Shown here: positions 35,799 to 57,020 of the stretch, piece after piece
Position numbering within the stretch: position 1 is the first letter of the stretch
Layout of the letters: the number at the start of each line of letters is the position of its first letter
NCBI GenBank assembly: GCA_038063615.1
Contig: JBBTUT010000003.1
Location: forward strand, 1,352-65,351
Origin: Patescibacteria group bacterium
GTDB taxonomy: Bacteria > Patescibacteriota > Minisyncoccia > Phycocordibacterales > UBA1550
Direction: 5' to 3'
Length of the DNA stretch: 64,000 nucleotides
The notes under the pieces: generated by a model
Told to the model about the DNA's origin: nothing
Databases searched by the model: none
What the model saw: only the letters and a program-made list of their open reading frames with translations
Made by a program: the position numbers and the translations under genes

Positions 35799-36467
35799 AA
35801 AAGAGCGATGCGCGGGGTTGATATTCTGCGTCAATATGATATCCACCCGGGGGTGATTTGTACTGTTACCAAGAAAACGGTGAAATATGCCGAAGAAATC
35901 CTTCATGGGTTGGTTTCTGCCGGTTTCAAAAACATCGCTTTCAACGCCTTTTATAACACGGCATCGGAAAGTGGCGGAGACGAGTATGGGTTATCGGATA
36001 AAGACTGGTACGGTTTCCTTAGAGAAATCTTTGAATCATGGCTGGAAATTAATGATGAAACGATTCGTGTGCGCGAGCTGGATGCTATACTGGCGTGGAC
36101 GCTAGGGAAGTCAACAAACGAATGTTCTTTCCGCGGAAGTTGCGATAAATGGTTTGCGATTGACCACGCAGGTGATGTTTACCCTTGTGAAAGGTTTGGG
36201 AAGAAAGTCAATTTTGGAAGTCTTGATTCTCTTGGGGTCTACGGAAATCTCATTATGAGTCAAACTTTTCTTGAGTGGAAAGATTCAATCCAAGTATTAC
36301 CGAGTAAATGCAGGGCTTGCACTTTTCTATCATTGTGTAACAATGGTTGTAGTAGTCATAGGCAAGCTGATGATCAAGGGGTGCCTCTTTATACCTATTG
36401 TGAAAGTCGGCTGGATTTCTATGGTTTTGTACAAAATCGGATAAAGAAAGGAGGTGAGACGCTATGA
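35733..36467 (+). pseudogene. Radical-SAM/SPASM maturase (anSME-like) C-terminal fragment; N-terminal Cx3Cx2C core missing, interrupted by the IS element
   Basis: Twitch/SPASM Cys clusters (CSFRGSCDKWFAIDHAGDVYPCERF; CRACTFLSLCNNGC) align with the C-terminal half of anSME-type enzymes. No CxxxCxxC. The frame enters from the IS right hairpin. A separate 35-codon ORF upstream of the IS (34921-35025) has its own TATAAT. Confidence 0.6.
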
Positions 36468-37724: not shown

Positions 37725-37967
37725 ATTCAGAATATTACTCTGTTGATGTGGATGTGTGTATAATTACTCGAAAAAAGCTTGACATTTTGTTCTTAGCGCG
37801 ATACTCTTTTGGTAGACAGTAGCGGATGCTTTGAGATTGGCTTGAGGTGACGCTAGGGTACTTTAAAAAGGGAGGTGATGCCACGCAACTTTGTAAGGTA
37901 TTAGGAGGTTCGGCTCGAGATTGGCTTGAGATGACTCCAAAGATTTCTTTAAAAAAGGAGATTTATT
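37725..37967 (+). promoter_or_regulatory. Promoter (TTGACA-N17-TACTCT) plus about 190-nt conserved 5' leader, copy A
   Basis: About 85% identical to 39200-39434. Contains two internal copies of GAGATTGGCTTGAG. Confidence 0.5.
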
Positions 37968-38189
37968 ATGAAAAAAAGTAAAAATGCTACACCCAGCCAT
38001 AACCCTTTTGCTTCTGAAGGGTTCAAACTATCTTCCTATACCCACAAATGCTGTTGCGTTGCGGTGCGTATAGGGGACACTGTGGACCTCCGTGACACCA
38101 AAAACCCAAATAGTCCCACGCTTTCTTTCAATAGGAAAGAGTGGAAGGCCTTTGTGAAAGGCGTGCAGTCCGGCGAGTTCAATGTCTGA
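37968..38189 (+). CDS. DUF397 (BldB-like) small protein, copy A
   Basis: FKLSSYTHKCCCVAVRIGDTVDLRDTKNPNSPTLSFNRKEWKAFVKGVQSGEFNV fits the DUF397 consensus (KSSYS..CVEVA...VRDSKDP.GP.L.F...EW.AF..GVK.GEFD). Confidence 0.55.
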   Translation: MKKSKNATPSHNPFASEGFKLSSYTHKCCCVAVRIGDTVDLRDTKNPNSPTLSFNRKEWKAFVKGVQSGEFNV

Positions 38190-39199: not shown

Positions 39200-39434
39200 T
39201 CTTACTCTGTTGATGTGGAGGTGTGTGGGTAATTACTCGAAAAAAGCTTGACAGTTTGTTCGTGGTGGGATACTCTGTGGGTAGACGGTAGTGGATGCTT
39301 TGAGGTGGGCTCGAGGTGGCGCTAGTGTACTTTAAAAAGAAAGGAGGTGATGAAAAATTGATATTGATTGGGAGGTTCGACTCGAGATTGGCTTGAGACG
39401 ACTCCAAAGAGCTCTTTAAAAAAGGAGATTTGCC
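39200..39434 (+). promoter_or_regulatory. Promoter plus conserved 5' leader, copy B
   Basis: Paralogous to 37725-37967. Confidence 0.5.
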
Positions 39435-39623
39435 ATGAAAAAGAGTAAGAACACTCGTGTGAGCAAGAATGAGCGTGGTGATAAAGTTATCACTCTGTGT
39501 GGGGTCAGTAACTGTTGCCCTACGGTGACGATTGATAGGGGAGGCAACCATGTCATCAAAGATGACTTCGGAGGTTCAGTCGTACTATCTAAAGAGCAGT
39601 TCGGGATGCTCAAAGAGGTTTAA
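39435..39623 (+). CDS. DUF397-like small protein, copy B (divergent)
   Basis: MKKSKN start shared with copy A. VITLCGVSNCCPTVTIDRGGNHVIKDDFGGSVVLSKEQFGML resembles the DUF397 core. Confidence 0.4.
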   Translation: MKKSKNTRVSKNERGDKVITLCGVSNCCPTVTIDRGGNHVIKDDFGGSVVLSKEQFGMLKEV

Positions 39624-39680: not shown

Positions 39681-40682
39681 ATGAAAAAACAACATACAGA
39701 ACTTTTATTTGTTCAGATTACCCCTGAGTGTAATATGGGTTGTCGATATTGTCCTTTTTCTAACCAAAATAATCTTATAAATAGACAAAATAATTTTAGT
39801 GCGCAGATCAATTCAATCAAAAACACTTTTGACTCAAAATCTTTCACAGAGAGTTCTTTCGGTGAGTTAATTGTATATGGAGGAGAGGCGCTTCTTTACT
39901 TTGACCAAGTTAAAAGAATAATTAATGAATATAAAAATTTCCGACATTACGGAAAAATAACAGTATGCACTAACGGCATTCTTATTAATCAAGATGTCAT
40001 TACCTATTGTAAAACCAACAAGATAAATGTGACTATAAATATGGATGGGGATTTTAATTTAGTCGCAAGTAATAAATTTTTTTCTAAAACAGATTGGGCT
40101 AAACTCACTGGTAATATAAAAGGACTTCATTCAGAGGGAATACCATATGATTTCTCTACGACCATTACACCTCACTTTATTGAAAATTTTAATTCACAAG
40201 TAAAATTTTTAGAATCTTTGCACCCGAGAATGATAGGTTTTAATTTTTTGAGGGATACTCAAGCACAAAAAGAATTTGGAATAAGCAACCCTGATAATTA
40301 TTTGCAAGATGCTACTTCTTTGGTGTTTAAATATAACTCAGTTGTGAATTTTAATCGAAATAAAAAACTGAGAGCTTTTAAAGAGAAAAAACAGATTTCT
40401 GATTGTATATGTTCTGGGATGGGTATAACTATCCTCGCAACCGGTGAATATACGACATGCGGAATATTTCCATCTCAAAGATGCAGGACATCAAGAGAGG
40501 TAATCAGCATCATGAAGGAAAATTATAAAAAATTATTTTTAGACATAGAACTAGGACAAAACATAAAAGACTTACCAACTTTTGGAGGAGGTTGTTCAAA
40601 GCTCTTGCGAGAGGACAATAAAAGATTTTCTTATTATAATGCTTGGGTAAGTTTTGAACAGTTTAATTATGAAAAATTATAA
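39681..40682 (+). CDS. Radical SAM enzyme with C-terminal SPASM domain
   Basis: CNMGCRYC (Cx3Cx2C) at residues 17-24. C-terminal Cys clusters (CICSGMG...CGIFPSQRC...GGGC). Confidence 0.75.
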   Translation: MKKQHTELLFVQITPECNMGCRYCPFSNQNNLINRQNNFSAQINSIKNTFDSKSFTESSFGELIVYGGEALLYFDQVKRIINEYKNFRHYGKITVCTNGILINQDVITYCKTNKINVTINMDGDFNLVASNKFFSKTDWAKLTGNIKGLHSEGIPYDFSTTITPHFIENFNSQVKFLESLHPRMIGFNFLRDTQAQKEFGISNPDNYLQDATSLVFKYNSVVNFNRNKKLRAFKEKKQISDCICSGMGITILATGEYTTCGIFPSQRCRTSREVISIMKENYKKLFLDIELGQNIKDLPTFGGGCSKLLREDNKRFSYYNAWVSFEQFNYEKL

Positions 40683-41457
40683 AATAGGGGTTATTGGCGG
40701 CTCTGGGATATACACTCTGCAAGACTATAAGTTTTTTGCAGGTAATTTTGACAATGAGTACAAAGATAGTGAGTTGGGAATAGAAAAATATAAATTTAGT
40801 AATTGTGAAATATATTTTTTATCTAGACATGGCAAAAATCATATGATCCTACCTCACGAGATAGATTATTTGACCAATATTAAGGCATTTGATGATTTGA
40901 AAGTTGATTGCATCATATCTTTTTGCACTGTTGGTTCATTAGATTCTAATTTCCAGCCCGGCTTGTATGTTACCCCAAAAGATATCATTGATTTTACCTA
41001 CAACAGGAAAGGATGGAACTACACCAAAGAAAACAAGCATGTTGATATACAGCCAGTTTTTGGCGAGGATTTAATGAGAGTTTGTAAGCAACTGTTTAAT
41101 AATATTAATGTTCCATTGAATAATGAGGGAACACTTGTTGTAATTGAAGGACCAAGGTTTGCTACTCTGGCAGAGCAAAATATGTACAAAATATTCGGTG
41201 GTAGTTTTTTGAATATGACCCAAGCGCAAGAAATTTATTTGTCGCATGTTTTCCAAATCCCATTTATTTCTCTGTGCCACATAACCGACCTGACCTCAAT
41301 CGTAAATAAAAACTATGACCTAACTTCAAGTGATGCGATATCGGTATTCAAAAGCAATTACAGTAAAGTGGAGAGGATATTGAGCGCGCTGGTCAAATAT
41401 TTAAGTGAAAATAAACCAGAAATAAAGTATCATAGTGATAAGCAAACTTTCGTGTAA
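40672..41457 (+). CDS. Purine nucleoside/5'-methylthioadenosine phosphorylase family protein (MTAP-like)
   Basis: IGVIGGSGIY N-terminus, SRHGKNHMILPHEIDY, VIEGPRFATLAE, HITD: PNP_UDP_1/MTAP pattern. Overlaps the radical-SAM gene end. Confidence 0.65.
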   Translation, partial: KNYKIGVIGGSGIYTLQDYKFFAGNFDNEYKDSELGIEKYKFSNCEIYFLSRHGKNHMILPHEIDYLTNIKAFDDLKVDCIISFCTVGSLDSNFQPGLYVTPKDIIDFTYNRKGWNYTKENKHVDIQPVFGEDLMRVCKQLFNNINVPLNNEGTLVVIEGPRFATLAEQNMYKIFGGSFLNMTQAQEIYLSHVFQIPFISLCHITDLTSIVNKNYDLTSSDAISVFKSNYSKVERILSALVKYLSENKPEIKYHSDKQTFV

Positions 41458-41550: not shown

Positions 41551-43227
41551 ATGATAAAAGTACAAAATCTTCAGAAAAGCTACGGTTCATTAACAGTGCT
41601 CTCCGATATTTCTTTTTCACTTGGAAGAGGACAGAAGGTGGCATTGGTTGGACTCAATGGAACCGGGAAAACAACTCTGCTTAAAATTGTGGCCGGTCTT
41701 GAGGAGCAGGATGCTGGAAAGATCGACCTTGCAACGGATGCCTGTATCGGTTATCTACCTCAAGATACGGGCCTTTCGGGGAACGAACCCATTATGGACT
41801 ATCTGAGGAAAGTGTCTGGCATTGATGTGCTCGAGAAAGAAATAGGAATTTTGTCTTCTGAGCTGGGTGACCCTGAAAAGGTCAAGCGTTACGGTGATGT
41901 TCGCAGTAAATATGAGCATCTCGACGGTTACTCTTTTGCTCACAGAGCAGAAGTGATGCTTTCAGGATTCGGGCTTGAAGATGTTGGGCTTGACCGCCCA
42001 CTGTCTAATCTGAGCAGTGGGCAGAAAAGCAAAGTGGTACTTGCGGGTATTTTGCTTAAGGGTGTTGATTTGCTTTTGCTTGATGAGCCTACGAACAACC
42101 TCGATCTCCCTGCTCTCATTTGGCTCGAGGATTTTCTGCAAAAATCCAAGGCATCATGCATCGTTGTTTCGCATGACCGCAGATTTCTCGACAAAGTTGT
42201 AAGAAAGATCTTCGAAATTGATTGGCGTACACGCGCACTTACCATCACTGGAGGCACATATAGTGATTATCTGGAAATGGTGGCAAAGCGTGTTGCATGT
42301 CAAAAGGAAGAGTACCGGCTTCAACAGGAGGAAATCGAGCGTCTGAACGAACGGGCGCGCGAAAAGAAGGCGGATGCTACTCGAGGATCACACTGGTCTC
42401 CACGCGACAATGACAAGTTTTTAAAGGGGTTTAAGCGTGATCGTGCTACGAAGTCTTCGAAGGCGGCAAAGGCTATTGAAAAGCGGGTAGAACAAATGGA
42501 TAAGATTGAAAAGCCAATAGAAAGAAAGCCGTTTGAGATACCTCTCAATGCTGAAGTTGATTCTGGTACGCTTGATGTTCGTCTCTCAGATGTTGTGATT
42601 GAATACCCAAACACTTTCCGTATTGGCCCACTGTCTTTTGAGGCACGCTATGGTAGCAGGGTCGGCATAATGGGTCTAAACGGATCAGGAAAATCGACAT
42701 TGCTAAAGACCATAACTGGACAGATGGCGCCTACTCACGGGAAAATTGAGGTTGGTTCTGGTCTCAGGATTGGCAATATGATGCAGGAGCACGAAACGCT
42801 TCCTCGCGAACGCACATTGCTTGAGTTTCTTGAAGAACGGGCACATCTAAGCAAGCAGGATTCATATGCCAAACTGTCAAAGTTTGGGTTCGATGAAAGA
42901 CAGGTCAAGTTGCCTATCAGCACCTTAAGTCCGGGTGGGCGCGCGCGCCTCCTGCTAGCTTTATTCTCAGCCCAGTCGGTCAATATGCTTGTTTTGGATG
43001 AGCCAACAAACCATCTCGATATCGAAGCACTGAATGCCCTTGAAGAAACACTGAGAACTTATCGTGGCACGGTACTGCTCGTCTCTCATGACAGATATTT
43101 CATCGAAAAAGCTTCGCTGGATACAACTTATGTTTTGTCTGACGGAGCTCTGACAAAGATTCCTGATTTTAAGACTTATGTTAAAACAGCAGAAGAGAAA
43201 GCACGAAAGTTGCTTAAACTGTTATGA
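41551..43227 (+). CDS. ABC-F family ATPase (two ABC domains, no TM domain)
   Basis: GLNGTGKTTLLK / LSSGQKSKVVLA / LLLDEPTNNLD, then GLNGSGKSTLLK / LSPGGRARLLLA / LVLDEPTNHLD with an inter-domain linker. Confidence 0.85.
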   Translation: MIKVQNLQKSYGSLTVLSDISFSLGRGQKVALVGLNGTGKTTLLKIVAGLEEQDAGKIDLATDACIGYLPQDTGLSGNEPIMDYLRKVSGIDVLEKEIGILSSELGDPEKVKRYGDVRSKYEHLDGYSFAHRAEVMLSGFGLEDVGLDRPLSNLSSGQKSKVVLAGILLKGVDLLLLDEPTNNLDLPALIWLEDFLQKSKASCIVVSHDRRFLDKVVRKIFEIDWRTRALTITGGTYSDYLEMVAKRVACQKEEYRLQQEEIERLNERAREKKADATRGSHWSPRDNDKFLKGFKRDRATKSSKAAKAIEKRVEQMDKIEKPIERKPFEIPLNAEVDSGTLDVRLSDVVIEYPNTFRIGPLSFEARYGSRVGIMGLNGSGKSTLLKTITGQMAPTHGKIEVGSGLRIGNMMQEHETLPRERTLLEFLEERAHLSKQDSYAKLSKFGFDERQVKLPISTLSPGGRARLLLALFSAQSVNMLVLDEPTNHLDIEALNALEETLRTYRGTVLLVSHDRYFIEKASLDTTYVLSDGALTKIPDFKTYVKTAEEKARKLLKLL

Positions 43228-43230
43228 GCA

Positions 43231-43275
43231 TAGAACCCAACAAGCATAAAAGCTTGTTGGGTTCTATTTATTTCG
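43231..43275 (+). terminator. Hairpin agaacccaacaagc-ataaa-gcttgttgggttct plus atttatttc
   Basis: Perfect 14-nt stem after the ABC-F stop. Confidence 0.7.
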
Positions 43276-43414: not shown

Positions 43415-44182
43415 ATGATAAAATTAACTTTTATTGGAAGTGGCTGTTGGCAGGGTATTCCAGCGCCTTTTGGTGCGGATAAAATTAGCCAGAATGTAGA
43501 ATGGGGTTCAAAAGATTTTCGCTTTAGGACATCTCTCCATATTGAAACTGAAAATGGGAAAAGTATTGTAGTTGAGGCAACACCTGATATTAGGTTGCAA
43601 TCATGGAAGTTTAAGTTAGGAAAACCTGATGCTATTCTTGTTTCTCATTGGCACTGGAATCATTTATTTGGGTTGCTCGATTTAGATTGGTTTGCTAAAA
43701 AGAACCCACTTATTGTCTATGGGAATAGTGTGACGAAAGAGTGGTACGAAGAAAGGATGAATCATGTGAATGTTAATTTTCAAACATTTAAGTCGTATGA
43801 GCCGTTTGAAATTGATAATCTTAGGATTACTCCTGTTGCCGTTGAACATGTCAGCGGTACAGATGGGTTTCTGTTTGAAGATTTAAATAGTGGCAAAAGA
43901 TTTGCGTATCTTTCTGATTTAAGTGGGATACCCGATGATACCGTTGGAATGATTAGAGATATTGATTTAATCATCACCGATGTCACATACATTGAATCAG
44001 ATATAAATGATGACCCTACTCATTTAAAGAAGGATCAAATTATTCCGTTTCTCAAGAATCTCAAAGCAAAGGAAATAGTTCTAGTAAACATAGGGTCGTA
44101 TCAAAAGCTTACGCACGATGACCTCGAACAAAAATTTCCTCAATATGCTATTGCGTATGACGGAATGGAGCGATGGTTTTAA
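43415..44182 (+). CDS. MBL-fold metallo-hydrolase-like protein (variant HWHWNH motif)
   Basis: VSHWHWNHLFGL sits where HxHxDH normally is (Asp replaced by Asn). TGGTATAAT box at about 43330. Confidence 0.55.
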   Translation: MIKLTFIGSGCWQGIPAPFGADKISQNVEWGSKDFRFRTSLHIETENGKSIVVEATPDIRLQSWKFKLGKPDAILVSHWHWNHLFGLLDLDWFAKKNPLIVYGNSVTKEWYEERMNHVNVNFQTFKSYEPFEIDNLRITPVAVEHVSGTDGFLFEDLNSGKRFAYLSDLSGIPDDTVGMIRDIDLIITDVTYIESDINDDPTHLKKDQIIPFLKNLKAKEIVLVNIGSYQKLTHDDLEQKFPQYAIAYDGMERWF

Positions 44183-44221: not shown

Positions 44222-45343
44222 ATGAAGTTAAAATCAAATCTCATAGACCAGTTGGACAAGGCAGACAGCCTATTTAAAAACGAAATAATATCCGAATTTG
44301 GAATTCCTGTTTATAATCCAGAATCTCATTATTTGGAGCTAACAAAATCAAAGTATTATTGGGCGTTACTTACCCTCCGCCATTGCCTCAAGGTCTCATC
44401 TGACCAGTACTTTAGTGTTGATGTTGGGGCTACTAACATAGATTTATTTATGATGACACCAAGTGTTTCTTCTCCAATGGGACCAGGTTCTGATTCTGAG
44501 GCAATACCGATAAAGTTTGGGAACCTGGTTACTTTTCTTGTTGATTCGTCCCAGTTTGGTTTTGAGCCACTACTAATTAATAATTTTGATAAAGTATATT
44601 GCTACCTCCCTTCAATGCGTGGTGAAGATCACGACAAGAGGCATCTTAATCAATTTTATCATTGTGAAGCAGAAATAAGAGGAGAATTAGGTGATTTAAC
44701 CCCAATCATAGAAAAATATATTAAGATTTTGGCCGAGACATTAAAAGCTTTGCCAAATCTAACTGAAAAAATTAGTGCTAATATGTCCGCCACAAATAGT
44801 GCAATAGAAGCTATAATATCGGCTGATAAATTCCCTGTGATTACTTTTGACGAAGCGATTGTGTTGTTGGAAGAAAACGGGCATCAGTCACTTGTCAATT
44901 ATTCCGAACATGGGCGGGACATTACTTCTTATGGGGAAATTATTTTATCAAAGATGTTAGGATTTAAAACACCTTTTTGGGTGCACGGCTATGATCGTGG
45001 CAGAGTTGCTTTTTATCAAAAGCCAGACCCTAATAACCTTGACAAGGTTATTAATGCTGACTTAATCTTCCCACCACTTTTTGAAGGGGCATTTGGTGGG
45101 GAAATTGTTGGATGCGGACAGAGACAGGACAATAAAAGTGAGATACTTGAGTCATTGAGAATTCAAAATATATCATCTGAGCCATACGAATGGTATATAA
45201 ATTTGAGAGAGTTACCAGAGTACAAAACCACTTCCGGTTTTGGGCTTGGCATAGAAAGATTTATAACATGGGCACTCGGTCATGATGATATTAGAAATTC
45301 TATTCCGTACCCTCGTCTGAAGAATGTACTAACCTTACCATAA
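44222..45343 (+). CDS. Class II aaRS-like catalytic-core protein (AspRS/AsnRS paralog lacking anticodon-binding domain; AsnA / AS-AR-like)
   Basis: Motif 2-like MRGEDHDKRHLNQFYHCEAEI and motif 3 GFGLGIERFITW. Homologous to the C-terminal half of the aspS at 58349. No OB-fold N-terminus. Confidence 0.65.
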   Translation: MKLKSNLIDQLDKADSLFKNEIISEFGIPVYNPESHYLELTKSKYYWALLTLRHCLKVSSDQYFSVDVGATNIDLFMMTPSVSSPMGPGSDSEAIPIKFGNLVTFLVDSSQFGFEPLLINNFDKVYCYLPSMRGEDHDKRHLNQFYHCEAEIRGELGDLTPIIEKYIKILAETLKALPNLTEKISANMSATNSAIEAIISADKFPVITFDEAIVLLEENGHQSLVNYSEHGRDITSYGEIILSKMLGFKTPFWVHGYDRGRVAFYQKPDPNNLDKVINADLIFPPLFEGAFGGEIVGCGQRQDNKSEILESLRIQNISSEPYEWYINLRELPEYKTTSGFGLGIERFITWALGHDDIRNSIPYPRLKNVLTLP

Positions 45344-45347
45344 AAAT

Positions 45348-46208
45348 ATGAAAAATATGCCAAACTACTACAATAAAGTTACTGAATATTTTAACGAGAA
45401 AGCATCTAGTTATGATGAAGTTGACAACCAAAAATATTGGGTGTTGTCCGATATGTTCTTTAAAGAAATTCTACGAAGAGAACTCCCGGCACTTATTGGG
45501 GACAAAAAACATATCAACCTTTTAGATGCTGGAGCTGGCACTGGTCGCTGGACAATTTTTTTTGATGAAATATTTAAAGATCAATATGATATAACAGGCA
45601 CCCTTGTAGATATTTCAAGTAAAATGCTTGATGAGGCATCTAAAAAATTAAAGGCAAGTGGCGCAGACACCCGCTTTAAGATTAAGAACACTAATATTGA
45701 AAATCTCGAAGATTTCCCCAATAAGAATTTTGATTTAAGTTTATCTTTCTATAATGTCATAAGCTTCGTGGAAGATCCTAAACGGGCACTTACTGAAATA
45801 CATCGAGTTTTGAGTGATGATGGTGTGCACATAAGTATTGTAGCTAATAAATATCATGCATACTACTTTTCGTTCCTTACTAACCGGCTCTCATCAATAG
45901 ATTCAATAAAAAAAGACTCGAAGGTTCGTTTCAATGACCTCATGCCGGCTATCCACTGCTTTACCCCAGAAGAACTAAAAGATCTTTATCTCTCGGCTGG
46001 TTTTAAAACCTGTAGGGTTATTGGTGGCCCAAATTTTATTTATCCTGGAATGGAAGAAACTTATGTGCACGGCAGCACCCCCTCATTGCAAGAGAAGCTT
46101 GCTGAGGCTGATAATTTCCAAAAAATACTAGAAGCCGAACTTGAGTACTACAACATGCCTGATATTGTGGGAAGAGGGAATGTATTACTCGCAATTGCCA
46201 CTAAATAG
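45348..46208 (+). CDS. Class I SAM-dependent methyltransferase
   Basis: Motif I LLDAGAGTGRWT. Confidence 0.65.
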   Translation: MKNMPNYYNKVTEYFNEKASSYDEVDNQKYWVLSDMFFKEILRRELPALIGDKKHINLLDAGAGTGRWTIFFDEIFKDQYDITGTLVDISSKMLDEASKKLKASGADTRFKIKNTNIENLEDFPNKNFDLSLSFYNVISFVEDPKRALTEIHRVLSDDGVHISIVANKYHAYYFSFLTNRLSSIDSIKKDSKVRFNDLMPAIHCFTPEELKDLYLSAGFKTCRVIGGPNFIYPGMEETYVHGSTPSLQEKLAEADNFQKILEAELEYYNMPDIVGRGNVLLAIATK

Positions 46209-46218: not shown

Positions 46219-47259
46219 ATGTCTACTCTCTCACTAAAACCACACTATTTGGAAAAAGGGGATACCGTCGGGCTAATAAGCCCAGCTGCCCCCCTTGCTG
46301 GGTTGGTGCCTCACCGTACTGACCAAGGAATCAAAATGTTGGAAGAGCTTGGTTTTAAGATAAAAATTGGATTGAACGCTATGAATATAACTGGCTATAC
46401 TGCTGGCACTGCAGAAGAAAGGGCGTCAGATATAAATAACTTTTTTGCTGACCCAGAAGTAAAAGGAATTGTTTCTTTTATAGGGGGGAATCATTCGAAT
46501 CAAATTTTAGAATATCTTGATTTTGATATTATTAAAAAAAACCCGAAAGTATTTATTGGGTACTCTGATATTACTGTTCTGCATTTAGCCATATATGCAA
46601 TGACTGAGCTAACTACTTTTTATGGTCCAGCAGTTTTGACACAGTTTGCTGAAAATCCTGCAATAATGGAATATACAAAAAAATATTTTTTGAAAGCAGT
46701 TACACAAAAAAGTCCAATTGGCGTGATCGAGCAATCAGTAGAGTGGACAGATGAAACTCTAAATTGGTTCACAAAAGAAGATTTGCAAGGAGCACGCCAG
46801 ATGAAGCTTAATTCCGGATGGAGATGGCTTAAGAGTGGTACGGCTCAGGGGAAATTACTCGGTGGGTGTCTTGCCTCAATGATGCATCTTCGTGGAACAA
46901 AGTATTGGCCAGATTTTGAAAAGGCAATTTTATTTTGGGAAATCTCCGAGGGTGAGGCAGATTTTCGTTTAGGAGAGAGTGTGTCAACAATAGATGCGCA
47001 TTTAACCGATTTGGAGTTGTCTGGCGTCTTCACCTCTATTCAGGGAATGATAGTCGGTCGTCCTTTTGGATATGACTCAGGCCAAGAACAAAAATTAATA
47101 GAAAAAATTTTAGAGAGAACAAAAAAGTATTCATTCCCAATTCTTTATGGTGTTGATATCGGACACACAGACCCGATGATCACTCTTCCTATTGGGGTAA
47201 AAGTAATGATTAATTCAGACAAGAATATTTTTGAAATTTTAGAGAGTGGCGTAATGTAG
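46219..47259 (+). CDS. Peptidase S66 family (LD-carboxypeptidase LdcA / microcin C immunity MccF-like)
   Basis: GYSDITVLH nucleophile motif. C-terminal DIGHTDP catalytic His region. ORF track begins at 46141. Confidence 0.7.
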   Translation: MSTLSLKPHYLEKGDTVGLISPAAPLAGLVPHRTDQGIKMLEELGFKIKIGLNAMNITGYTAGTAEERASDINNFFADPEVKGIVSFIGGNHSNQILEYLDFDIIKKNPKVFIGYSDITVLHLAIYAMTELTTFYGPAVLTQFAENPAIMEYTKKYFLKAVTQKSPIGVIEQSVEWTDETLNWFTKEDLQGARQMKLNSGWRWLKSGTAQGKLLGGCLASMMHLRGTKYWPDFEKAILFWEISEGEADFRLGESVSTIDAHLTDLELSGVFTSIQGMIVGRPFGYDSGQEQKLIEKILERTKKYSFPILYGVDIGHTDPMITLPIGVKVMINSDKNIFEILESGVM

Positions 47260-47379: not shown

Positions 47380-48675
47380 ATGACACATACAATGTTTGTC
47401 CAGGCGCATTTGGGTGCTGAGTTTTCCGGGATGGCTAGAGTTTTATCCAAGAGGCATATCGGCAAGATTTTATTTTGTGGGGCACGCCTTTTGGAAGAAA
47501 ACATTCAGTTAGTATTTAGAGAGGAACACCTCGCAAACTATCGACACATCGTTAGTCTGCCGAGAGGGAGTTTGCTCAAGGTCTCTGGGAATAAAATACA
47601 TACTCGGAGCGGCACACCATCACTGGAAATAACTTCCGCAGACATTATCCATATCGTCAAAGAAAACTTACCAGATAAACAAAATTGCCTGAGTAGGTCG
47701 CTTCGATATCGTCGCCGAACGATTGATCTTATGACGAACGACACATCTTTCGTCTTTTTTAGGAGGCAATCAGAGGTCTTGATGATAATAAGGAAGTTTC
47801 TTTATGATTTGGGGTATCATGAGTTCATTACTGGCACATTGCAGGAAGTGTTTGAAGGTGGACAGTCTGTGTCTTTCGACACATACTGCAAGGCGACTGG
47901 TAAAAATGTTACTCTTAGCTTAACAAGTGAACTGAAGCTTAGGCGGTTGCTTGTCTCTGGGTTTGATCGTGTGTTTGAGATTGCTCAATCATTTCGAAAT
48001 GAAGGTTCTGACAAACTACATTCTCCTGAGTTTACTCTTTTGGAAATGTATGCTCGCAGTTCTGGACATTTAGAAATGATGGAATTGCTTGAGTCAATGG
48101 TTTCAGAAATTGCTGGGAAAATACAAGATGATTCCGATGTCCTGTTTACTCCAGAAAGATACCGTGCTCCGTTTCAGCGTATTCTTTTTCGAGAGGTATT
48201 CGAAAATCATTTTGGTGATTTTAGCAGATTTAACATTCAGTATTTCTCAGAATTAATGCCAGAGATGTTCAATGTGGCAATGTCTCATTTCACTTGGACA
48301 ATGAAGCTCATTGAAAAAGTGATTCTTCCAACTATTCGTGGACCAGCATTTCTTGTTGAGTTACCAGTTGGAATGTCTCCATTCGTTAAAAATTCAAGCG
48401 ATGGTGTAACCACACAGAGAGCATTCTTTGTCGCTGATGGATTATTTGTCGCCGATATTTATTCTGACGAGAATAATCCAGACATAATACAAAAGAATCT
48501 CGAACAGCAATCAATGGCGGTTGGGAATGTCTTAAATAAAGATTATGTTGAGATATTATCGCTTGGGCTTGGCGAGTCAGCCGGTCTAGGCATGGGCTTA
48601 AATCGTTTATCGATGCTCTTTTTGGGCACTTTGCCTCGCGATATTAAAGAAACTATATTGTACCCAATTCTCTAA
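47380..48675 (+). CDS. Lysyl-tRNA synthetase-like paralog (class IIb, divergent)
   Basis: OB-fold-like N-terminus. Motif 2 FRNEGSDKLHSPEFTLLEMY. Degenerate motif 3 GLGMGLNRLSMLF (Asn in place of the conserved Asp). Confidence 0.6.
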   Translation: MTHTMFVQAHLGAEFSGMARVLSKRHIGKILFCGARLLEENIQLVFREEHLANYRHIVSLPRGSLLKVSGNKIHTRSGTPSLEITSADIIHIVKENLPDKQNCLSRSLRYRRRTIDLMTNDTSFVFFRRQSEVLMIIRKFLYDLGYHEFITGTLQEVFEGGQSVSFDTYCKATGKNVTLSLTSELKLRRLLVSGFDRVFEIAQSFRNEGSDKLHSPEFTLLEMYARSSGHLEMMELLESMVSEIAGKIQDDSDVLFTPERYRAPFQRILFREVFENHFGDFSRFNIQYFSELMPEMFNVAMSHFTWTMKLIEKVILPTIRGPAFLVELPVGMSPFVKNSSDGVTTQRAFFVADGLFVADIYSDENNPDIIQKNLEQQSMAVGNVLNKDYVEILSLGLGESAGLGMGLNRLSMLFLGTLPRDIKETILYPIL

Positions 48676-48689: not shown

Positions 48690-50090
48690 ATGAACCGTTA
48701 CCCCGATTCTTTTTACAAGAGTCACTCTATTCTTCAAGTAATATCTGAGCATGAAGATTTAGTTAAGGATGTAACCGAAGTCACTACTGCAGGGAGAGTG
48801 CTTGCGCGACGAGCTTTTGGTAAAATCATATTCCTCGATATCCAGGATTTTTCTTCAAAGATCCAGTGCTATGCGAGGGAGGATATCTTAGGTTCGACTA
48901 AACAGGTATTTATTGCGAAGCAACTCAAAGTTGGAGATGTTGTTGGCGTGCGTGGCACAGCGTTCCTCCCAAAATCAGGAGAAAAGTCTATTAAGCTTAC
49001 TGATATATTTTTGCTTTCGGAAACAACTCTTCCGTTCCCAGAAAAATATCACAGGCTAGTAGACCAAGAGGCCCGTTATCGCCAGCGTTATCTTGATCTC
49101 ATTATGAATTCTGATACGCGGAAGATTTTCCAGACACGGTTCTTGTTGTTGAAAGAACTGCGCCGTTTCCTTGATGGTCGTGGCTTTATTGAGGTAGAAA
49201 CACCGATATTCCAACATACCCCTTGCGGTGCATCGGCGAACCCATTTCGGACACGGCACGACGCAAAAGGAATTGATCTTTATCTTCGTATCTCACCAGA
49301 GACATATCTTAAGCAGTTGATAGTAGCTGGGATAGATAGGGTGTATGAGATTGGTAAAAACTTTCGAAACGAGGGGGTTGACCCGACACATCTTCAAGAG
49401 TTTACGATGCTCGAGTTCTATGTCTCCTATTGGAGCTATCGTGAGAATATCGTGTTTGTTCAAGAGCTGTTGCGAGAAATCATTCAGAGGAGCACTGGCG
49501 GGCTGTCTATCCCATGCAACGAGATAACACTCGATTTTGGCGCAGAATGGAGCCATGTGAAATATCGAGATGTTTTACTTTCTGGAACGGGGATAGATGT
49601 TCTTGAGATGCGGAATACTACGGAGCTTCTGGCTGAAATGAAGCGGTGTGGTGTTGAAATTGAGCATGAGAAAGTGGAGTCGCTGGGTTCGATGGTTGAT
49701 AAGCTGTACAAGCGTTTTGTACGACCAAATCTTGTTCAGCCAACAATCTTAATGCAGCATCCAGCATATTTACTGCCTCTTGCTCGCCCAAGTGATGAAG
49801 ACCCTCGTGTTGCGGACTCATTTCAGGTACTGGTTAACGGGTGGGAGATAGTCAAAGCGTATTCGGAACTGGCTGACCCGGAGCTACAACGGTCACTCCT
49901 CGAAGGTCAATCTCAGTCTCGTAAAGACGGCGACAAAGAAGCCATGTTTTTAGATGAAGATTTTCTTCTTTCTTTAAAGTATGGCATGCCACCTGTCTCT
50001 GGGGTTGGAATTGGTATTGATCGGCTTCTCGCGATTCTTACTAATCAACGAAACCTCAATGAAGTTGTTTTGTTCCCTTTGATGAAGTAG
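48690..50090 (+). CDS. lysS: Lysyl-tRNA synthetase (class IIb), canonical motifs
   Basis: Motif 1 region, motif 2 FRNEGVDPTHLQEFTMLEFY, motif 3 GVGIGIDRLLAIL. N-terminal anticodon-binding OB fold. Confidence 0.75.
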   Translation: MNRYPDSFYKSHSILQVISEHEDLVKDVTEVTTAGRVLARRAFGKIIFLDIQDFSSKIQCYAREDILGSTKQVFIAKQLKVGDVVGVRGTAFLPKSGEKSIKLTDIFLLSETTLPFPEKYHRLVDQEARYRQRYLDLIMNSDTRKIFQTRFLLLKELRRFLDGRGFIEVETPIFQHTPCGASANPFRTRHDAKGIDLYLRISPETYLKQLIVAGIDRVYEIGKNFRNEGVDPTHLQEFTMLEFYVSYWSYRENIVFVQELLREIIQRSTGGLSIPCNEITLDFGAEWSHVKYRDVLLSGTGIDVLEMRNTTELLAEMKRCGVEIEHEKVESLGSMVDKLYKRFVRPNLVQPTILMQHPAYLLPLARPSDEDPRVADSFQVLVNGWEIVKAYSELADPELQRSLLEGQSQSRKDGDKEAMFLDEDFLLSLKYGMPPVSGVGIGIDRLLAILTNQRNLNEVVLFPLMK

Positions 50091-50099: not shown

Positions 50100-50140
50100 T
50101 CTTTGTTTCCTTGCACGGCTATTGATTTTAAAATCAATAG
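50100..50140 (+). terminator. Hairpin acggctattgatttt-aaaatcaatagccgt plus U-tract, followed by the duplicated 51-nt module
   Basis: Perfect stem after lysS. Confidence 0.7.
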
Positions 50141-50201
50141 CCGTGTTTTTTTGTTTTCTTTTTTTGTGCGGGGCGTGGTATGATTGGGGGAACGGAACGA
50201 T

Positions 50202-53061: not shown

Positions 53062-53242
53062 TTTTGTGGATATGTTTTTTGCAAAATTATCGCCCGAACA
53101 TTTGTAAACAAATGTTTTAGAGGGAGGGGCAGTTAAATAGCCAATAGTGAATAGTCAATAATATTACGCGGCGACCCCTCTGTTTTTGTGTTTGGTGTGG
53201 TAGAATGATATGGAGGAAAAAGATTCTAGTATATATTGGTAT

Positions 53243-53764
53243 ACAAACATGTCTCAAGAAAAAAATTTAGCGTTTATTGACGGACAAAACTTACACCTAG
53301 GAACCACGCAAAATGGGTGGAAAGTTGATCATAATAAATTGAGAGTGTATTTGAAAGATAAGTATCATGTAACGGAAGCATATTATTTTTTGGGGTATGT
53401 CTCAGAAGAAGAACAAGACCTCTACAATAATCTGCAAAAAGCAGGATTCATTGTTTTGTTCAAGGAACACAACTCAAATCTGAAAGCAAAAAAGAAAGGG
53501 AATGTTGATACCGATATTGTGTTTGAAATAATGAAACACCTTGTTGACAATAAAGATTTTGACAAGTTTCTTTTGGTTTCTGGTGATGGTGATTATAAAA
53601 AGGTGGTTGATTATTTGATAAAGAAAAACAAATTTAGAAAGATCCTTTTCTCAAATAAAAAATTCGCTTCTTCTTTGTTTAAAAGCCTAGGATCTGAATT
53701 CTTCGATTACATGGAAAACTTCAAAACATACATAGAGTGGTCTAAAAAAGAAAAGGGCTCCTAA
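53243..53764 (+). CDS. NYN/LabA-like domain protein
   Basis: KNLAFIDGQNLHLGT, GNVDTDIV, LVSGDGDY motifs. An upstream in-frame ATG at 53210 follows a GGTAGAAT box. The stop lies inside the conserved terminator-like element. Confidence 0.7.
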   Translation, partial: TNMSQEKNLAFIDGQNLHLGTTQNGWKVDHNKLRVYLKDKYHVTEAYYFLGYVSEEEQDLYNNLQKAGFIVLFKEHNSNLKAKKKGNVDTDIVFEIMKHLVDNKDFDKFLLVSGDGDYKKVVDYLIKKNKFRKILFSNKKFASSLFKSLGSEFFDYMENFKTYIEWSKKEKGS

Positions 53765-56683: not shown

Positions 56684-57019
56684 ATGAATCCCGTTAGAGA
56701 TTCCCTGCCCACTTTCGCCAGAACACAAATTTGAGCTCAAGTGATGGCGGGCGGGCTCAGTTATGTATTATGTTTATGTTATTCAGAATGACAAAGGTAC
56801 ATGGTATACTGGCAGCACAGGAGACCTACGGAAACGCTTGAGGGAGCATAACACTGGCAGGTCAACTTGGACAAAAGGTAAGGGGGCGTGGGAGGTTATT
56901 TATTACGAAGCATGTCTTAATGAGCAAGATGCTCGGTCGAGAGAAATGTATTTAAAATCGGGAATGGGTAAGCGCTATCTAAAAACTAGACTCAAGCGTT
57001 TCCTATCTCTAACGGGATG
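56684..57019. mobile_element. GIY-YIG nuclease-encoding element with 12-nt terminal inverted repeats TCCCGTTAGAGA/TCTCTAACGGGA, flanked by ATGAA/ATGAAAA, on the trpS start codon
   Basis: atgaaTCCCGTTAGAGA ... TCTCTAACGGGatgaaaaag. The nuclease stop TGA overlaps the trpS ATG (gggATGA). Gene-less derivative at 33040-33149. Confidence 0.7.
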
Positions 57020-57020
57020 A
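56763..57020 (+). CDS. GIY-YIG nuclease domain protein (UPF0213-like, 85 aa)
   Basis: MYYVYVIQNDKGTWYTGSTGDLRKRLREHN matches the GIY...YIG motif. Confidence 0.75.
   Translation: MYYVYVIQNDKGTWYTGSTGDLRKRLREHNTGRSTWTKGKGAWEVIYYEACLNEQDARSREMYLKSGMGKRYLKTRLKRFLSLTG

What the first reader, a model, noticed from the sequence alone, without database searches (positions are those of the whole stretch)
44222..45343. Stand-alone AspRS/AsnRS catalytic core (AsnA / AS-AR-like) lacking an anticodon-binding domain
Class II motifs 2 and 3 are intact (MRGEDHDKRHL..., GFGLGIERF), and there is clear homology to the C-terminal half of the genuine archaeal-type aspS at 58349. There is no OB-fold N-terminus. 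Such proteins act as tRNA-independent amino-acid:amine ligases (asparagine synthetase A-like) or feed aminoacyl-adenylates into secondary metabolism.
Basis: partly seen in the sequence, partly recalled or inferred. Interest (0 to 1): 0.55.

Follow-up and report, generated by a model that had tools for sequence, protein, structure and literature searches.

The report
AgnA-like truncated AsnRS gene cassette
This gene looks like the catalytic half of an asparagine-tRNA-charging enzyme, but it is a relative of AgnA, the enzyme proposed to build the antibiotic agrocin 84; in tiny 'candidate phyla' bacteria it nearly always sits beside a microcin-C-type peptidase, usually with a methyltransferase and in about half the cases a second synthetase look-alike, which points to an undescribed pathway for a nucleotide that mimics an activated amino acid.

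Summary
ORF 44222-45343 (373 aa) is an intact class IIb (AsnRS-type) catalytic core with no anticodon-binding domain, and an in-frame stop 39 nt upstream rules out a hidden N-terminus.

It is neither an AsnRS nor an archaeal AS-AR/AsnA orthologue, since all curated cut-offs are missed. It belongs to the family of AgnA, the truncated AsnRS homologue of the agrocin 84 plasmid pAgK84: 33% identity, E 6e-46, and shared signature motifs SSPMGxGSD and DSxQF.

- In about 30 Patescibacteria loci it lies next to a MccF-type S66 peptidase with an intact Ser-His-Glu triad and the adenine-stacking Trp. A SAM methyltransferase accompanies it in most loci.
- In about half of the loci there is also a variable second class II synthetase look-alike. 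Here that is a divergent LysRS paralogue at 47380-48675; elsewhere it is HisZ/HisRS-like or ProRS-like.
- The same module occurs in pAgK84, Xenorhabdus and Bradyrhizobium plasmids.
- Family members are fused to HIT, GNAT, Asparaginase_2 or methyltransferase domains.

Best reading (about 0.6): a tRNA-independent adenylating enzyme in a mobile, low-GC cassette that makes a non-hydrolysable (phosphoramidate) aminoacyl-adenylate mimic. The chemistry is inferred and untested.

Verdict: new variant of a known, uncharacterised kind. Interest 0.68.

The parts
43230..43267 (+). Terminator-like hairpin (16-bp stem) just after the ABC-F gene; likely upstream boundary of the transcription unit
43415..44182 (+). 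MBL-fold metallo-hydrolase (PhnP-like phosphodiesterase family). First gene of the low-GC cassette; role unknown
   Evidence: Pfam Lactamase_B_2 E 1e-21; NCBIfam PhnP/PRK02113 hits below cut-off; GC 0.366
44222..45343 (+). The finding: an AgnA-family, AsnRS-derived class IIb catalytic core, 373 aa, with no anticodon-binding domain
44456..44500 (+). Family-specific loop TPSVSSPMGPGSDSE (aa 79-93). It replaces the class IIb 'flipping loop' and is shared with AgnA
   Evidence: pLDDT is low here, as expected for a mobile loop
44537..44566 (+). LVDSSQFGFE (aa 106-115). Asp108 replaces the first Gln of the QSxQ motif of AsnRS/AspRS. Phe114 sits where AspRS has its Asp-binding Lys
44612..44674 (+). 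Class II motif 2 with R133, E135, H141, F145 and E149 all invariant. E149 is the AsnRS-type Glu, where AspRS has Asp
45053..45127 (+). Acidic Mg2+/ATP ligands D280 and E294, and the side-chain-binding R301 in GGEIVGCGQRQ; all invariant
45233..45262 (+). Class II motif 3, SGFGLGIERF, with invariant R346
45348..46208 (+). Class I SAM-dependent methyltransferase-fold enzyme (locus family f3). It starts 5 nt after the target's stop codon
   Evidence: Pfam. A methyltransferase of one of four families (f2, f3, f4, f7) accompanies the core in most loci. Only family f4 is AgnB1-like; the window protein matches AgnB1 weakly
46219..47259 (+). MccF-type S66 serine peptidase. The likely start is ATG 46219; the mechanical ORF starts at TTG 46141
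   Evidence: PDB MccF E 7e-59 versus LdcA 1e-16 to 1e-19; 36% identity to AgnC5, E 2e-74; Ser/His/Glu triad and adenine-stacking Trp conserved; adjacent to the core in ~30 of 32 loci
47380..48675 (+). LysRS' : a divergent LysRS paralogue, 431 aa, 100% identical to NCBI MEK7568659.1 'amino acid--tRNA ligase-related protein'. It is a conserved fourth member of the cassette
   Evidence: NCBIfam lysS 231 bits versus cut-off 468; distinct family of about 70 clusters; same gene order in L041 and L042, and also linked in L043, L044 and L032; altered acidic ATP/Mg site
48690..50090 (+). Canonical class II LysRS, probably the native housekeeping gene. Its adjacency to the cassette may be chance
   Evidence: NCBIfam 518 bits, above cut-off 468; GC 0.445, near the genome level; five aaRS genes lie in this window
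50113..50146 (+). Terminator-like hairpin (15-bp stem plus T-run) at the end of the gene string
40654..41457 (+). MTAP-like nucleoside phosphorylase in the neighbouring low-GC segment. Membership of the system is possible but unproven
   Evidence: The Xenorhabdus cluster also has a nucleoside phosphorylase, but BLAST finds no similarity between the two

Best explanation
The ORF encodes a tRNA-independent adenylate-forming enzyme of the AgnA family, a lineage that split from AsnRS and lost the anticodon-binding domain.

It is the constant core of a mobile cassette: MBL hydrolase, AgnA-like enzyme, SAM-dependent transferase, MccF-type S66 peptidase, and a LysRS-like paralogue. The cassette appears to have been inserted as a low-GC island in a Patescibacteria genome.

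Proposed mechanism:
1. The enzyme binds ATP and an asparagine-like substrate in a pocket that keeps the AsnRS-type residues.
2. It joins the carboxamide nitrogen to the alpha-phosphate of AMP, giving an N-acyl phosphoramidate (Asp/Asn-NH-AMP). This is a stable mimic of an aminoacyl-adenylate, as in processed microcin C and in the agrocin 84 warhead.
3. The MccF-type peptidase cleaves the acyl-N bond. This either protects the producer or releases adenosine 5'-phosphoramidate as an intermediate.
4. The transferase modifies the product.
5. The variable second synthetase look-alike (LysRS' here) either re-acylates the phosphoramidate with its own amino acid or acts as a resistant or decoy copy of the target.

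Shown: the fold, the intact ATP/Mg site, family membership, synteny, the fusions, and mobility.
Inferred: the substrate, the P-N bond, the order of steps, and any antibiotic role.
For: **Family**
- 33% identity over 335 aa to AgnA, E 6e-46.
- The signature motifs SSPMGxGSD and DSxQF are shared with AgnA and about 100 representative clusters. Full-length AsnRS proteins carry QSSQLYLE and score only up to about 144 bits against the family profile.
- The NCBIfam score pattern matches AgnA-type proteins, not AS-AR-type ones.

**Active site**
- R133, E135, H141, F145, D280, E294 and R346 are invariant.

**Synteny**
- An S66 gene lies next to the core in about 30 of 32 loci.
- That S66 is MccF-like, with the catalytic triad and Trp retained.
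- An AgnB1-like methyltransferase is present in 10 loci at 31-36% identity.
- A second class II aaRS-like gene is found in about half of the loci. It is LysRS', HisZ/HisRS-like f5, or ProRS-like.

**Same module in agrocin-type clusters**
- pAgK84 carries agnA, agnB1 and the resistant LeuRS agnB2, plus the MccF-like agnC5.
- Xenorhabdus carries core, AgnB1-like methyltransferase, S66, nucleoside phosphorylase, a LeuRS 42% identical to AgnB2, a ProRS-like gene and an MFS transporter.

**Fusions to enzyme classes that act on McC-type adenylate mimics**
- HIT, a RimL/MccE-type GNAT, Asparaginase_2 and a methyltransferase.
- Their roles in microcin C immunity are described in PMC8323819.

**Pocket**
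- Pocket residues stay the same whether the linked aaRS gene is LeuRS or LysRS'. This argues for a common Asn-type substrate.

**Mobility**
- Cassette GC is 0.37-0.40 against 0.45-0.49 for neighbouring housekeeping genes.
- Terminator-like hairpins bracket the gene string.
- A copy at 58.7% identity sits on IS-flanked Bradyrhizobium plasmids.

**Literature**
- AgnA was proposed to form the agrocin 84 phosphoramidate bond (PMC8323819 and PMC4392301).
Against: - No member of the AgnA family has been characterised biochemically. The P-N chemistry is a 2006 sequence-based proposal, and the agrocin 84 pathway is still described as unknown.
- The window's methyltransferase belongs to family f3, not the AgnB1-like f4.
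- No exporter is encoded in the window cassette.
- One family member is fused to a PP-binding carrier domain, and one sits inside an NRPS cluster. Those suggest ordinary carboxylate activation in at least some members.
- The role of the S66 peptidase (immunity versus biosynthesis) is not resolved.
- The canonical LysRS next door may simply be a housekeeping gene, since five aaRS genes lie in this window.
- An antibiotic role in episymbiotic CPR bacteria is conjecture.
Confidence: 0.6

Rival explanations
1. It is an ordinary tRNA-independent amino-acid ligase that activates a carboxylate (Asn or Asp) as a normal acyl-adenylate and passes it to a thiol, amine or carrier protein in an unknown secondary-metabolite pathway. 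No P-N bond is formed. The S66 peptidase and the methyltransferase act on that product.
For: The catalytic machinery for standard adenylation is intact. One family member is fused to a PP-binding domain (P0170). Another lies inside a Streptomyces NRPS cluster. A Bacillus homologue is next to an ATP-grasp ligase.
Against: This reading does not explain the near-obligate pairing with MccF-type peptidases, or the fusions to HIT and RimL/MccE-type GNAT domains. The characterised relatives of those enzymes act on stable aminoacyl-adenylate mimics. The window cassette contains no carrier protein.
Confidence: 0.2
2. It is an ammonia-dependent asparagine synthetase (AS-AR/AsnA type) that supplies free asparagine to a metabolically poor CPR cell.
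For: It has the same overall architecture as archaeal AS-AR, a truncated AsnRS core. RefSeq names several homologues, including AgnA, 'asparagine synthetase A'. There are weak hits to NCBIfam PRK06462 models.
Against: All four curated cut-offs are missed (139/322, 127/389, 90/368, 71/309). The solved AS-AR matches only the C-terminal ~120 aa (E 1.7e-7) and ranks 49th by fold. AS-AR-type truncated cores keep the QSxQ motif, whereas this family has DSxQ plus a new loop. The gene lies in a low-GC mobile cassette with MccF-like and aaRS-like genes. The window also encodes a non-discriminating AspRS, which implies the tRNA-dependent route to Asn-tRNA.
Confidence: 0.1
3. It is a split or minimalist AsnRS that still charges tRNA(Asn), with tRNA recognition supplied in trans or through the acceptor stem alone.
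For: Its closest solved structures are AsnRS enzymes, and its pocket residues are AsnRS-like. CPR genomes are known for reduced genes (general knowledge).
Against: No OB-fold partner gene is nearby. The flipping loop and the QSxQ motif are remodelled. The gene is accessory and mobile, and it also occurs in Bradyrhizobium, Xenorhabdus and Agrobacterium, which have normal translation systems.
Confidence: 0.03
4. It is a decaying, inactive gene fragment.
For: None beyond the truncation relative to AsnRS.
Against: More than 100 homologue clusters share the same length, with 60-92% identity and invariant catalytic residues. The structure model is confident.
Confidence: 0.02

Closest known systems
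AgnA ('agrocin 84 synthetase', Arad_15004) of plasmid pAgK84, Rhizobium rhizogenes K84
   Same: Both are truncated AsnRS-type cores of about 350-370 aa. They share 33% identity (E 6e-46) and the SSPMGxGSD and DSxQF signatures. Both sit in a cluster with a MccF-like S66 peptidase (AgnC5), a SAM methyltransferase and an extra aaRS gene.
   Different: The window's cluster has none of the agnC1-C4, agnC6-C7, agnD, agnE or agnG genes. Its methyltransferase is a different family from AgnB1. The linked synthetase is a LysRS paralogue rather than a resistant LeuRS. The host is a CPR bacterium. AgnA's own reaction has never been demonstrated.
Archaeal asparagine synthetase AS-AR (Pyrococcus abyssi; PDB 3p8t, 3rex, 1nnh) and E. 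coli AsnA
   Same: These are also class IIb catalytic cores without an anticodon-binding domain, and they work without tRNA.
   Different: Sequence similarity is only marginal (E 1.7e-7, C-terminal third only). The curated cut-offs are missed. The signature motifs and the genomic context differ.
Asparaginyl-tRNA synthetase (e.g. P. horikoshii 1x54, T. thermophilus 5zg8)
   Same: These are the best structural and sequence matches among solved proteins. Motifs 1-3 are shared, as are the AsnRS-type pocket residues (Glu in motif 2, and Arg in GxxxGGxxR).
   Different: The target has no OB-fold domain. Its flipping loop is replaced, the QSxQ motif reads DSxQ, and the motif 2 loop is one residue shorter. 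Its scores fall far below the asnS cut-offs.
MccB / microcin C system (mccABCDEF)
   Same: This is the proposed functional analogue: conversion of an Asn carboxamide into an N-acyl phosphoramidate linked to AMP (MccB uses two ATP; PMC6385645 abstract). The same immunity enzyme classes are linked to both systems: MccF S66, MccE-type GNAT and MccH-type HIT (PMC8323819).
   Different: MccB is a ThiF/E1-like enzyme acting on a ribosomal heptapeptide and is not homologous to this protein. No precursor peptide or MccB/MccC homologue was noticed in the window; tiny ORFs ending in Asn were not searched systematically.
Other truncated aaRS paralogues with new acceptors (EpmA/GenX, HisZ, SerRS-like amino acid:carrier-protein ligases)
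   Same: The evolutionary theme is the same: an aaRS catalytic core freed from tRNA. The cassette's alternative fourth gene, f5, is itself HisZ/HisRS-like.
   Different: These belong to different aaRS lineages, have different partners, and have known acceptors (own knowledge).

Membership tests
Asparaginyl-tRNA synthetase (AsnRS) | N-terminal OB-fold anticodon-binding domain | tested here: not met
   No PF01336 hit. The AF2 model has only short helices before the core. An in-frame stop lies at 44183.
Asparaginyl-tRNA synthetase (AsnRS) | Reaches the curated NCBIfam asnS score | tested here: not met
   155 bits versus 414 (NF003037) and 149 versus 342.6 (TIGR00457).
Asparaginyl-tRNA synthetase (AsnRS) | Class II motifs 1-3 and ATP/Mg ligands | tested here: met
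Asparagine synthetase AS-AR / AsnA | Reaches the curated NCBIfam 'asparagine synthetase A' score or the Pfam AsnA model | tested here: not met
   139/322, 127/389, 90/368 and 71/309 bits. No AsnA Pfam hit.
Asparagine synthetase AS-AR / AsnA | Close similarity to the characterised P. abyssi AS-AR | tested here: not met
   E 1.7e-7 over aa 247-369 only. Foldseek rank 49.
Asparagine synthetase AS-AR / AsnA | Catalyses Asp + NH3 + ATP -> Asn | not testable with these tools
   Needs an enzyme assay.
AgnA family (truncated AsnRS homologues of agrocin-type clusters) | Full-length similarity to AgnA that exceeds similarity to AsnRS or AS-AR | tested here: met
   148 bits, 33% identity over 335 aa to AgnA. 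Other AgnA-type proteins (Xenorhabdus, Bacillus) give E 2e-52 to 3e-57. Full-length AsnRS representatives score no more than about 144 bits against the family profile, while family members score up to 570.
AgnA family (truncated AsnRS homologues of agrocin-type clusters) | Signature motifs S(I/V)SSPMGxGSD and DSxQFxxE | tested here: met
AgnA family (truncated AsnRS homologues of agrocin-type clusters) | Clustered with a MccF-like S66 peptidase (AgnC5 type) | tested here: met
AgnA family (truncated AsnRS homologues of agrocin-type clusters) | Clustered with an AgnB1-type methyltransferase | tested here: inconclusive
   A SAM methyltransferase is adjacent, but it belongs to family f3 and matches AgnB1 only weakly (27% over 139 aa). 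True AgnB1 homologues (f4) occur in 10 sister loci.
AgnA family (truncated AsnRS homologues of agrocin-type clusters) | Extra aaRS or aaRS-like gene in the cluster | tested here: met
   LysRS' at 47380-48675, conserved in the cassette. Compare LeuRS in pAgK84 and Xenorhabdus.
AgnA family (truncated AsnRS homologues of agrocin-type clusters) | Forms a phosphoramidate (P-N) bond | not testable with these tools
   This is only proposed, even for AgnA itself.
MccB-type (ThiF/E1-like) peptide adenylyltransferase | ThiF/E1 fold and a precursor peptide ending in Asn | tested here: not met
   The fold is class II aaRS. The window has no ThiF domain.

The most novel reading that the evidence does not exclude
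The constant trio (AgnA-like enzyme, SAM-dependent transferase, MccF-type peptidase) may be a general asparagine-dependent device for installing nitrogen on AMP.

1. Asn + ATP gives Asp/Asn-NH-AMP.
2. The S66 peptidase (or the Asparaginase_2 domain in fused forms) releases adenosine 5'-phosphoramidate.
3. A swappable second class II synthetase look-alike then acylates that phosphoramidate with its own amino acid. The look-alike is LysRS' here, HisZ/HisRS-like or ProRS-like elsewhere, and AgnC1 in agrocin 84.

The outcome would be a programmable family of non-hydrolysable aminoacyl-adenylates that poison the matching tRNA synthetase.

This model would explain how the agrocin 84 P-N bond is made. 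It would make CPR bacteria carriers of modular synthetase-inhibitor factories. It would also link the fish and fungal fusion proteins (acyltransferase + Asparaginase_2 + HIT + core) to P-N lipids such as the fish-roe toxin dinogunellin.
Probability: 0.25. Interest if true: 0.9.

Novelty: new variant of a known kind. Interest (0 to 1): 0.68.

Why it matters
Agrocin 84 and microcin C are the textbook 'Trojan-horse' inhibitors of tRNA synthetases. How agrocin's phosphoramidate bond is made has been unknown since its gene cluster was sequenced in 2006. A 2021 review found agrocin-like clusters only in Ensifer and some actinobacteria.

This window shows that the suspected key enzyme, AgnA, belongs to a large and sharply defined family. 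A compact four-gene version of the system is widespread and highly conserved in Patescibacteria. These are organisms with tiny genomes, and I could find no report of such a cassette in them in the papers I could search.

- The constant-plus-variable architecture gives a concrete, testable scheme for the chemistry and for predicting the target synthetase. The constant part is the AgnA-like core and the MccF-like peptidase, usually with a methyltransferase. The variable part is the second synthetase look-alike.
- The domain fusions (HIT, GNAT, Asparaginase_2) support the same scheme.
- If the scheme is correct, it opens genome mining for new synthetase inhibitors. It also suggests a chemical weapon, or a metabolic trick, in the interaction between CPR bacteria and their hosts.
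- It warns against the current automatic annotation 'asparagine synthetase A' for these proteins.

Tried and rejected
1. **Hidden N-terminus.** Rejected. An in-frame stop lies 39 nt upstream, and homologues have the same length.
2. **AS-AR/AsnA orthology.** Rejected on curated cut-offs, PDB similarity and motifs.
3. **S66 as the peptidoglycan LD-carboxypeptidase LdcA.** Rejected. MccF structures match at E ~1e-58 against 1e-16 to 1e-19 for LdcA, and the adenine-stacking Trp is kept.
4. **Family f5 equals AgnC1, or f5 is related to the target family.** hhalign found nothing (probability 0.2 and 0.9). f5 turned out to be HisZ/HisRS-like instead.
5. **Window methyltransferase equals AgnB1.** Only generic similarity.
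6. **Window MTAP-like gene equals the Xenorhabdus nucleoside phosphorylase.** No BLAST hit.
7. **agnC1-C4, C6-C7, D and E homologues in the window.** None found.
8. **Literature on this cassette in CPR bacteria, or on AgnA biochemistry.** Nothing found. The original Kim et al. 2006 paper is not held in the library.
9. **Confirming the composition of dinogunellin from open papers.** Only the P-N bond and the fatty-acid residue could be confirmed.
10. **tRNA genes and Rfam families in the window.** None.
11. **Promoter scan.** Not above chance.

Not done: I did not systematically search for tiny precursor-peptide ORFs ending in Asn.
Full report
**Observation**

The ORF at 44222-45343 (+) encodes 373 aa. 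Pfam places a class II D/K/N synthetase core on residues 103-366 (E 3e-24) and finds no OB-fold.

An in-frame TAG at 44183, 39 nt before the start, excludes a longer N-terminus. More than 100 homologue clusters have the same ~372-aa length. The AlphaFold2 model (pLDDT 88, pTM 0.90) superposes on AsnRS catalytic domains: 1x54 at E 3e-26 and TM 0.77, with AspRS somewhat lower.

Similarity to the window's own non-discriminating AspRS is real but weak: 23% identity, E 2e-15. The protein is AsnRS-like rather than AspRS-like.

**What it is not**

It misses every curated NCBIfam threshold. The asnS models give 155/414 and 149/342.6 bits. The four 'asparagine synthetase A' models give 139/322, 127/389, 90/368 and 71/309.

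The crystallised archaeal AS-AR matches only the last ~120 residues (E 1.7e-7) and ranks 49th by fold. Truncated AsnRS cores of the AS-AR type keep the canonical QSxQ motif and score best on different NCBIfam models than this protein does.

**What it is**

A tblastn search of plasmids with the neighbouring S66 peptidase led to pAgK84, the agrocin 84 plasmid. Its agnA gene product ('agrocin 84 synthetase', described in the literature as a truncated AsnRS homologue without the anticodon-binding domain) is 33% identical to the target over 335 aa, E 6e-46.

Both proteins share two features absent from AsnRS, AspRS and LysRS:
- The loop S(I/V)SSPMGxGSD replaces the class IIb flipping loop.
- DSxQFxxE replaces QSxQ.

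A profile of the CPR subfamily, searched against 1.84 billion representative proteins, finds about 100 clusters with these signatures. Genuine full-length AsnRS proteins appear only at or below ~144 bits.

The residues that bind ATP and Mg2+ in class II enzymes are invariant: R133, E135, H141, F145, D280, E294 and R346. The enzyme should therefore be catalytically active.

Three positions distinguish Asn from Asp recognition in class IIb enzymes. This mapping is my own knowledge of E. coli AspRS K198, D233 and R489, transferred through the alignments. In the target they are F114, E149 and R301, which is the AsnRS pattern. They are the same in AgnA and in the Xenorhabdus homologue, although those clusters are linked to LeuRS rather than LysRS.

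**Context in the window**

The gene sits in a tight same-strand string:

| Coordinates | Gene |
|---|---|
| 43415-44182 | MBL hydrolase |
| 44222-45343 | target |
| 45348-46208 | SAM methyltransferase (5-nt gap after the target) |
| 46219-47259 | S66 peptidase |
| 47380-48675 | divergent LysRS paralogue (LysRS') |
| 48690-50090 | canonical LysRS |

- Strong terminator-like hairpins lie at 43230-43267 and 50113-50146.
- The first five genes have GC 0.37-0.40. The canonical LysRS has 0.445, the upstream ABC-F 0.46, and AspRS and enolase 0.49. An IS200-like transposase lies about 8 kb upstream of the cassette, at 35111-35785. The cassette therefore looks horizontally acquired.
- The window also carries LeuRS, AlaRS, Trp/TyrRS and AspRS genes. 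Adjacency to the canonical lysS may therefore be coincidental.

**Comparative genomics**

Thirty-one related loci from species-representative genomes are all Patescibacteria-type MAGs. Some record titles name other taxa. ORF clustering shows an S66 gene next to the core in about 30 of 32 loci. Two of the exceptions are truncated contigs, so only L025 truly lacks one.

- **The S66 peptidase.** It matches microcin-C immunity peptidases MccF at E ~1e-58 and murein LD-carboxypeptidases only at 1e-16 to 1e-19. It is 36% identical to AgnC5. It keeps the Ser/His/Glu triad and the Trp that stacks on adenine in MccF (the role of W186 is described in PMC8323819).
- **The methyltransferase.** A 260-290-aa SAM methyltransferase is present in most loci, in four sequence families. 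One of them (f4, in 10 loci) is the AgnB1 orthologue at 31-36% identity.
- **The second class II synthetase look-alike.** About half of the loci add one.
  - LysRS' is a distinct family of about 70 clusters. In four of four contexts examined it lies in the cassette, and in L041 and L042 the order is the same as in the window: core, methyltransferase, S66, LysRS'.
  - f5 is a 380-aa family that Pfam (24 of 39 members) and a confident model (pLDDT 90; Foldseek HisZ/HisRS at E 3e-14) identify as a HisZ/HisRS-like core without an anticodon domain. It is present in 9 loci.
  - A ProRS-like protein is present in L029 and L031.
- **LysRS' active site.** It keeps the motif 2 and 3 arginines and the Glu/Tyr that bind the lysine side chain. 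The acidic ATP/Mg motif is replaced ('RFE..wE..SELNDP' becomes 'raf...f..tDEnd'), and the OB domain is only faintly detectable.

**Outside the CPR**

- **Xenorhabdus bovienii megaplasmid.** It carries the core (42% identical to AgnA), an AgnB1-like methyltransferase, S66, a nucleoside phosphorylase, VOC, GloA, a LeuRS 42% identical to the resistant AgnB2, a ProRS-like protein and an MFS transporter.
- **Bradyrhizobium plasmids.** They carry S66, the core, a HAD hydrolase and a methyltransferase, flanked by IS elements. The core is 58.7% identical to the window protein. This gene set is also seen in a Moranbacteria locus, which indicates inter-phylum transfer.
- **Pantoea agglomerans plasmids.** A GNAT-core fusion is followed by an MFS transporter.
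- **Fusions elsewhere.** The core is joined to HIT, to a RimL/MccE-type GNAT, to a methyltransferase, to Asparaginase_2 (+HIT), or to a PP-binding domain. The largest fusions are eukaryotic: goby fish, chytrid and Talaromyces.

MccF, the MccE acetyltransferase domain and the HIT protein MccH are the three known enzymes that disarm processed microcin C (PMC8323819). All three classes are linked to this family, either by adjacency or by fusion.

**Mechanism**

What is shown:
- An active-looking, tRNA-independent AsnRS-derived adenylating enzyme.
- Membership of the AgnA family.
- A conserved, mobile cassette with a MccF-type peptidase, usually with a SAM-dependent enzyme, and often a second aaRS-like protein.

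What I infer:
- The family uses ATP and an Asn-type substrate to make an N-acyl phosphoramidate, that is, a stable aminoacyl-adenylate mimic.
- True acyl-adenylates are too labile to need MccF-, GNAT- or HIT-type partners.
- The only characterised products linked to such gene sets are agrocin 84 and microcin C, and both contain this bond.

Precedents for turning a carboxamide nitrogen into a P-N bond exist in the literature:
- MccB uses two ATP to do this on the terminal Asn of a peptide (PMC6385645 abstract).
- N-phospho-L-glutamine is a known biosynthetic intermediate (PMC6429109).

The pocket is constant while the second aaRS-like gene varies. For that reason I favour, at lower confidence, a two-stage scheme. 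The core plus the peptidase would generate adenosine 5'-phosphoramidate from Asn. The variable look-alike (LysRS' here) would then acylate it. The alternative is that S66 and LysRS' serve purely for self-protection.

**Rivals**

- An ordinary carboxylate-activating ligase (0.2) is supported by one PP-binding fusion and one NRPS context.
- Asparagine synthetase (0.1), a minimalist AsnRS (0.03) and a dead gene (0.02) fit the data poorly, for the reasons given above.

**Known versus new**

AgnA's existence and the proposal that it forms the P-N bond date from 2006. The pathway is still described as unknown, and agrocin-like clusters were reported only from Ensifer and actinobacteria.

I found no paper on this cassette in Patescibacteria, on the LysRS' or f5 families, or on the domain fusions. 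I therefore rate it as a new variant of a known but uncharacterised kind.

**Limits**

- Everything about substrate, product and biological role is inference from sequence, structure prediction and gene neighbourhood.
- The 31 loci were found with peptide patterns taken from the query, so prevalence cannot be estimated.
- Four of the LysRS' contexts were selected through LysRS' itself.
- The residue-to-function mapping relies on textbook knowledge of AspRS and AsnRS, not on a ligand-bound model.

Noticed in passing
window 47380-48675; loci L032, L041-L044: A distinct family of LysRS-like paralogues ('amino acid--tRNA ligase-related protein', about 425-440 aa, about 70 clusters). They are embedded in the AgnA-like/methyltransferase/S66 cassette. 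The motif 2 and 3 arginines are kept, but the acidic ATP/Mg motif is replaced and the OB fold is degenerate.
   Followed up: partly
L004, L008, L017, L019, L024, L029-L031, L033 (family f5; e.g. L008:1863-3014): An unannotated ~380-aa 'hypothetical' family occupies the fourth position of many cassettes. It is a HisZ/HisRS-like class II core without an anticodon domain (Pfam tRNA-synt_His in 24 of 39 members; AF2 pLDDT 90; Foldseek HisZ at E 3e-14).
   Followed up: yes
L039 (Xenorhabdus bovienii CS03 megaplasmid NZ_FO818638.1, 11599-28579): An apparently undescribed agrocin-84-like cluster in an insect-pathogen symbiont: AgnA-like, AgnB1-like methyltransferase, S66, nucleoside phosphorylase, VOC, GloA, a LeuRS 42% identical to the resistant AgnB2, a ProRS-like protein and an MFS transporter.
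   Followed up: partly
L036 (Bradyrhizobium barranii pBb323S2a; also B. elkanii plasmids): An S66 / AgnA-like / HAD / methyltransferase module, 45-59% identical to CPR proteins. It is flanked by IS elements next to nodU, and its GC is lower than its surroundings (0.52 vs 0.58-0.60). This suggests inter-phylum transfer. A NYN-domain gene lies nearby, as it does in the window (53210-53764).
   Followed up: partly
P0153 (Knipowitschia caucasica CAL1572859.1, 1569 aa), P0171 (chytrid KAJ3415921.1), P0225 (Talaromyces KUL89395.1): Eukaryotic fusion proteins: carnitine-type acyltransferase + Asparaginase_2 + HIT + AgnA-like core. Fish-roe dinogunellins are adenosine lipids with a P-N bond (PMC6429109, PMC7463754). 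From memory, and unverified here, they also contain an Asn-derived aminosuccinimide. The fish protein could therefore be their synthase.
   Followed up: partly
L037 (Pantoea agglomerans plasmids, e.g. NZ_CP034476.1 115857-117452): A GNAT (Acetyltransf_3, RimL/MccE-like) + AgnA-like core fusion of 531 aa, followed directly by an MFS transporter. This looks like a minimal producer, immunity and export pair.
   Followed up: no
L001, L005, L006, L010, L012, L013, L034 (upstream S66 copy, ~360-390 aa): In cassettes with two tandem S66 genes, the longer copy lacks the catalytic His and the Trp loop, and in some loci (L005, L010, L012) also the nucleophile Ser. It is probably a non-catalytic paralogue.
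   Followed up: partly
window 13-2238, 9093-10865, 48690-50090, 57017-57988, 58268-59686: Five housekeeping aaRS genes lie in 64 kb: LeuRS (cut by the window edge), AlaRS, LysRS, Trp/TyrRS-type, and a non-discriminating archaeal-type AspRS. No tRNA genes and no Rfam hits were found in the window.
   Followed up: partly
window 37753-37984 and 39222-39451; ORFs 37968-38189 and 39435-39623: Two copies (84-88% identical, about 1.47 kb apart) of a ~230-nt segment. Each leads into a small MKKSKN... ORF (73 and 62 aa) with a Cys-rich, DUF397-like look. Neither matches any Rfam family.
   Followed up: partly
window 35111-36467 and 39681-41457: An IS200-like transposase overlaps or abuts a SPASM-domain fragment (35733-36467). 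Further on lies a very low-GC (0.31-0.34) radical SAM/SPASM maturase-like gene and an MTAP-like phosphorylase. This may be a second acquired segment or an extension of the cassette.
   Followed up: no
window 41551-43227: An ABC-F protein that passes the NCBIfam 'ribosomal protection-like ABC-F' cut-off (421 vs 380 bits). It lies immediately upstream of the cassette, but its GC is native (0.46) and a terminator follows it.
   Followed up: no
window 22890-24182 (-) and 61273-62985 (+): A PRiA4_ORF3-like protein is the only large minus-strand gene. There is also a RadC-JAB + C5 cytosine DNA methylase fusion.
   Followed up: no
L041, L042 (downstream of the cassette): In two complete-looking CPR genomes the cassette lies beside PrgI / TraC-like / VirB4-like (type IV secretion or conjugation) genes and giant proteins of 2000-2750 aa.
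   Followed up: no
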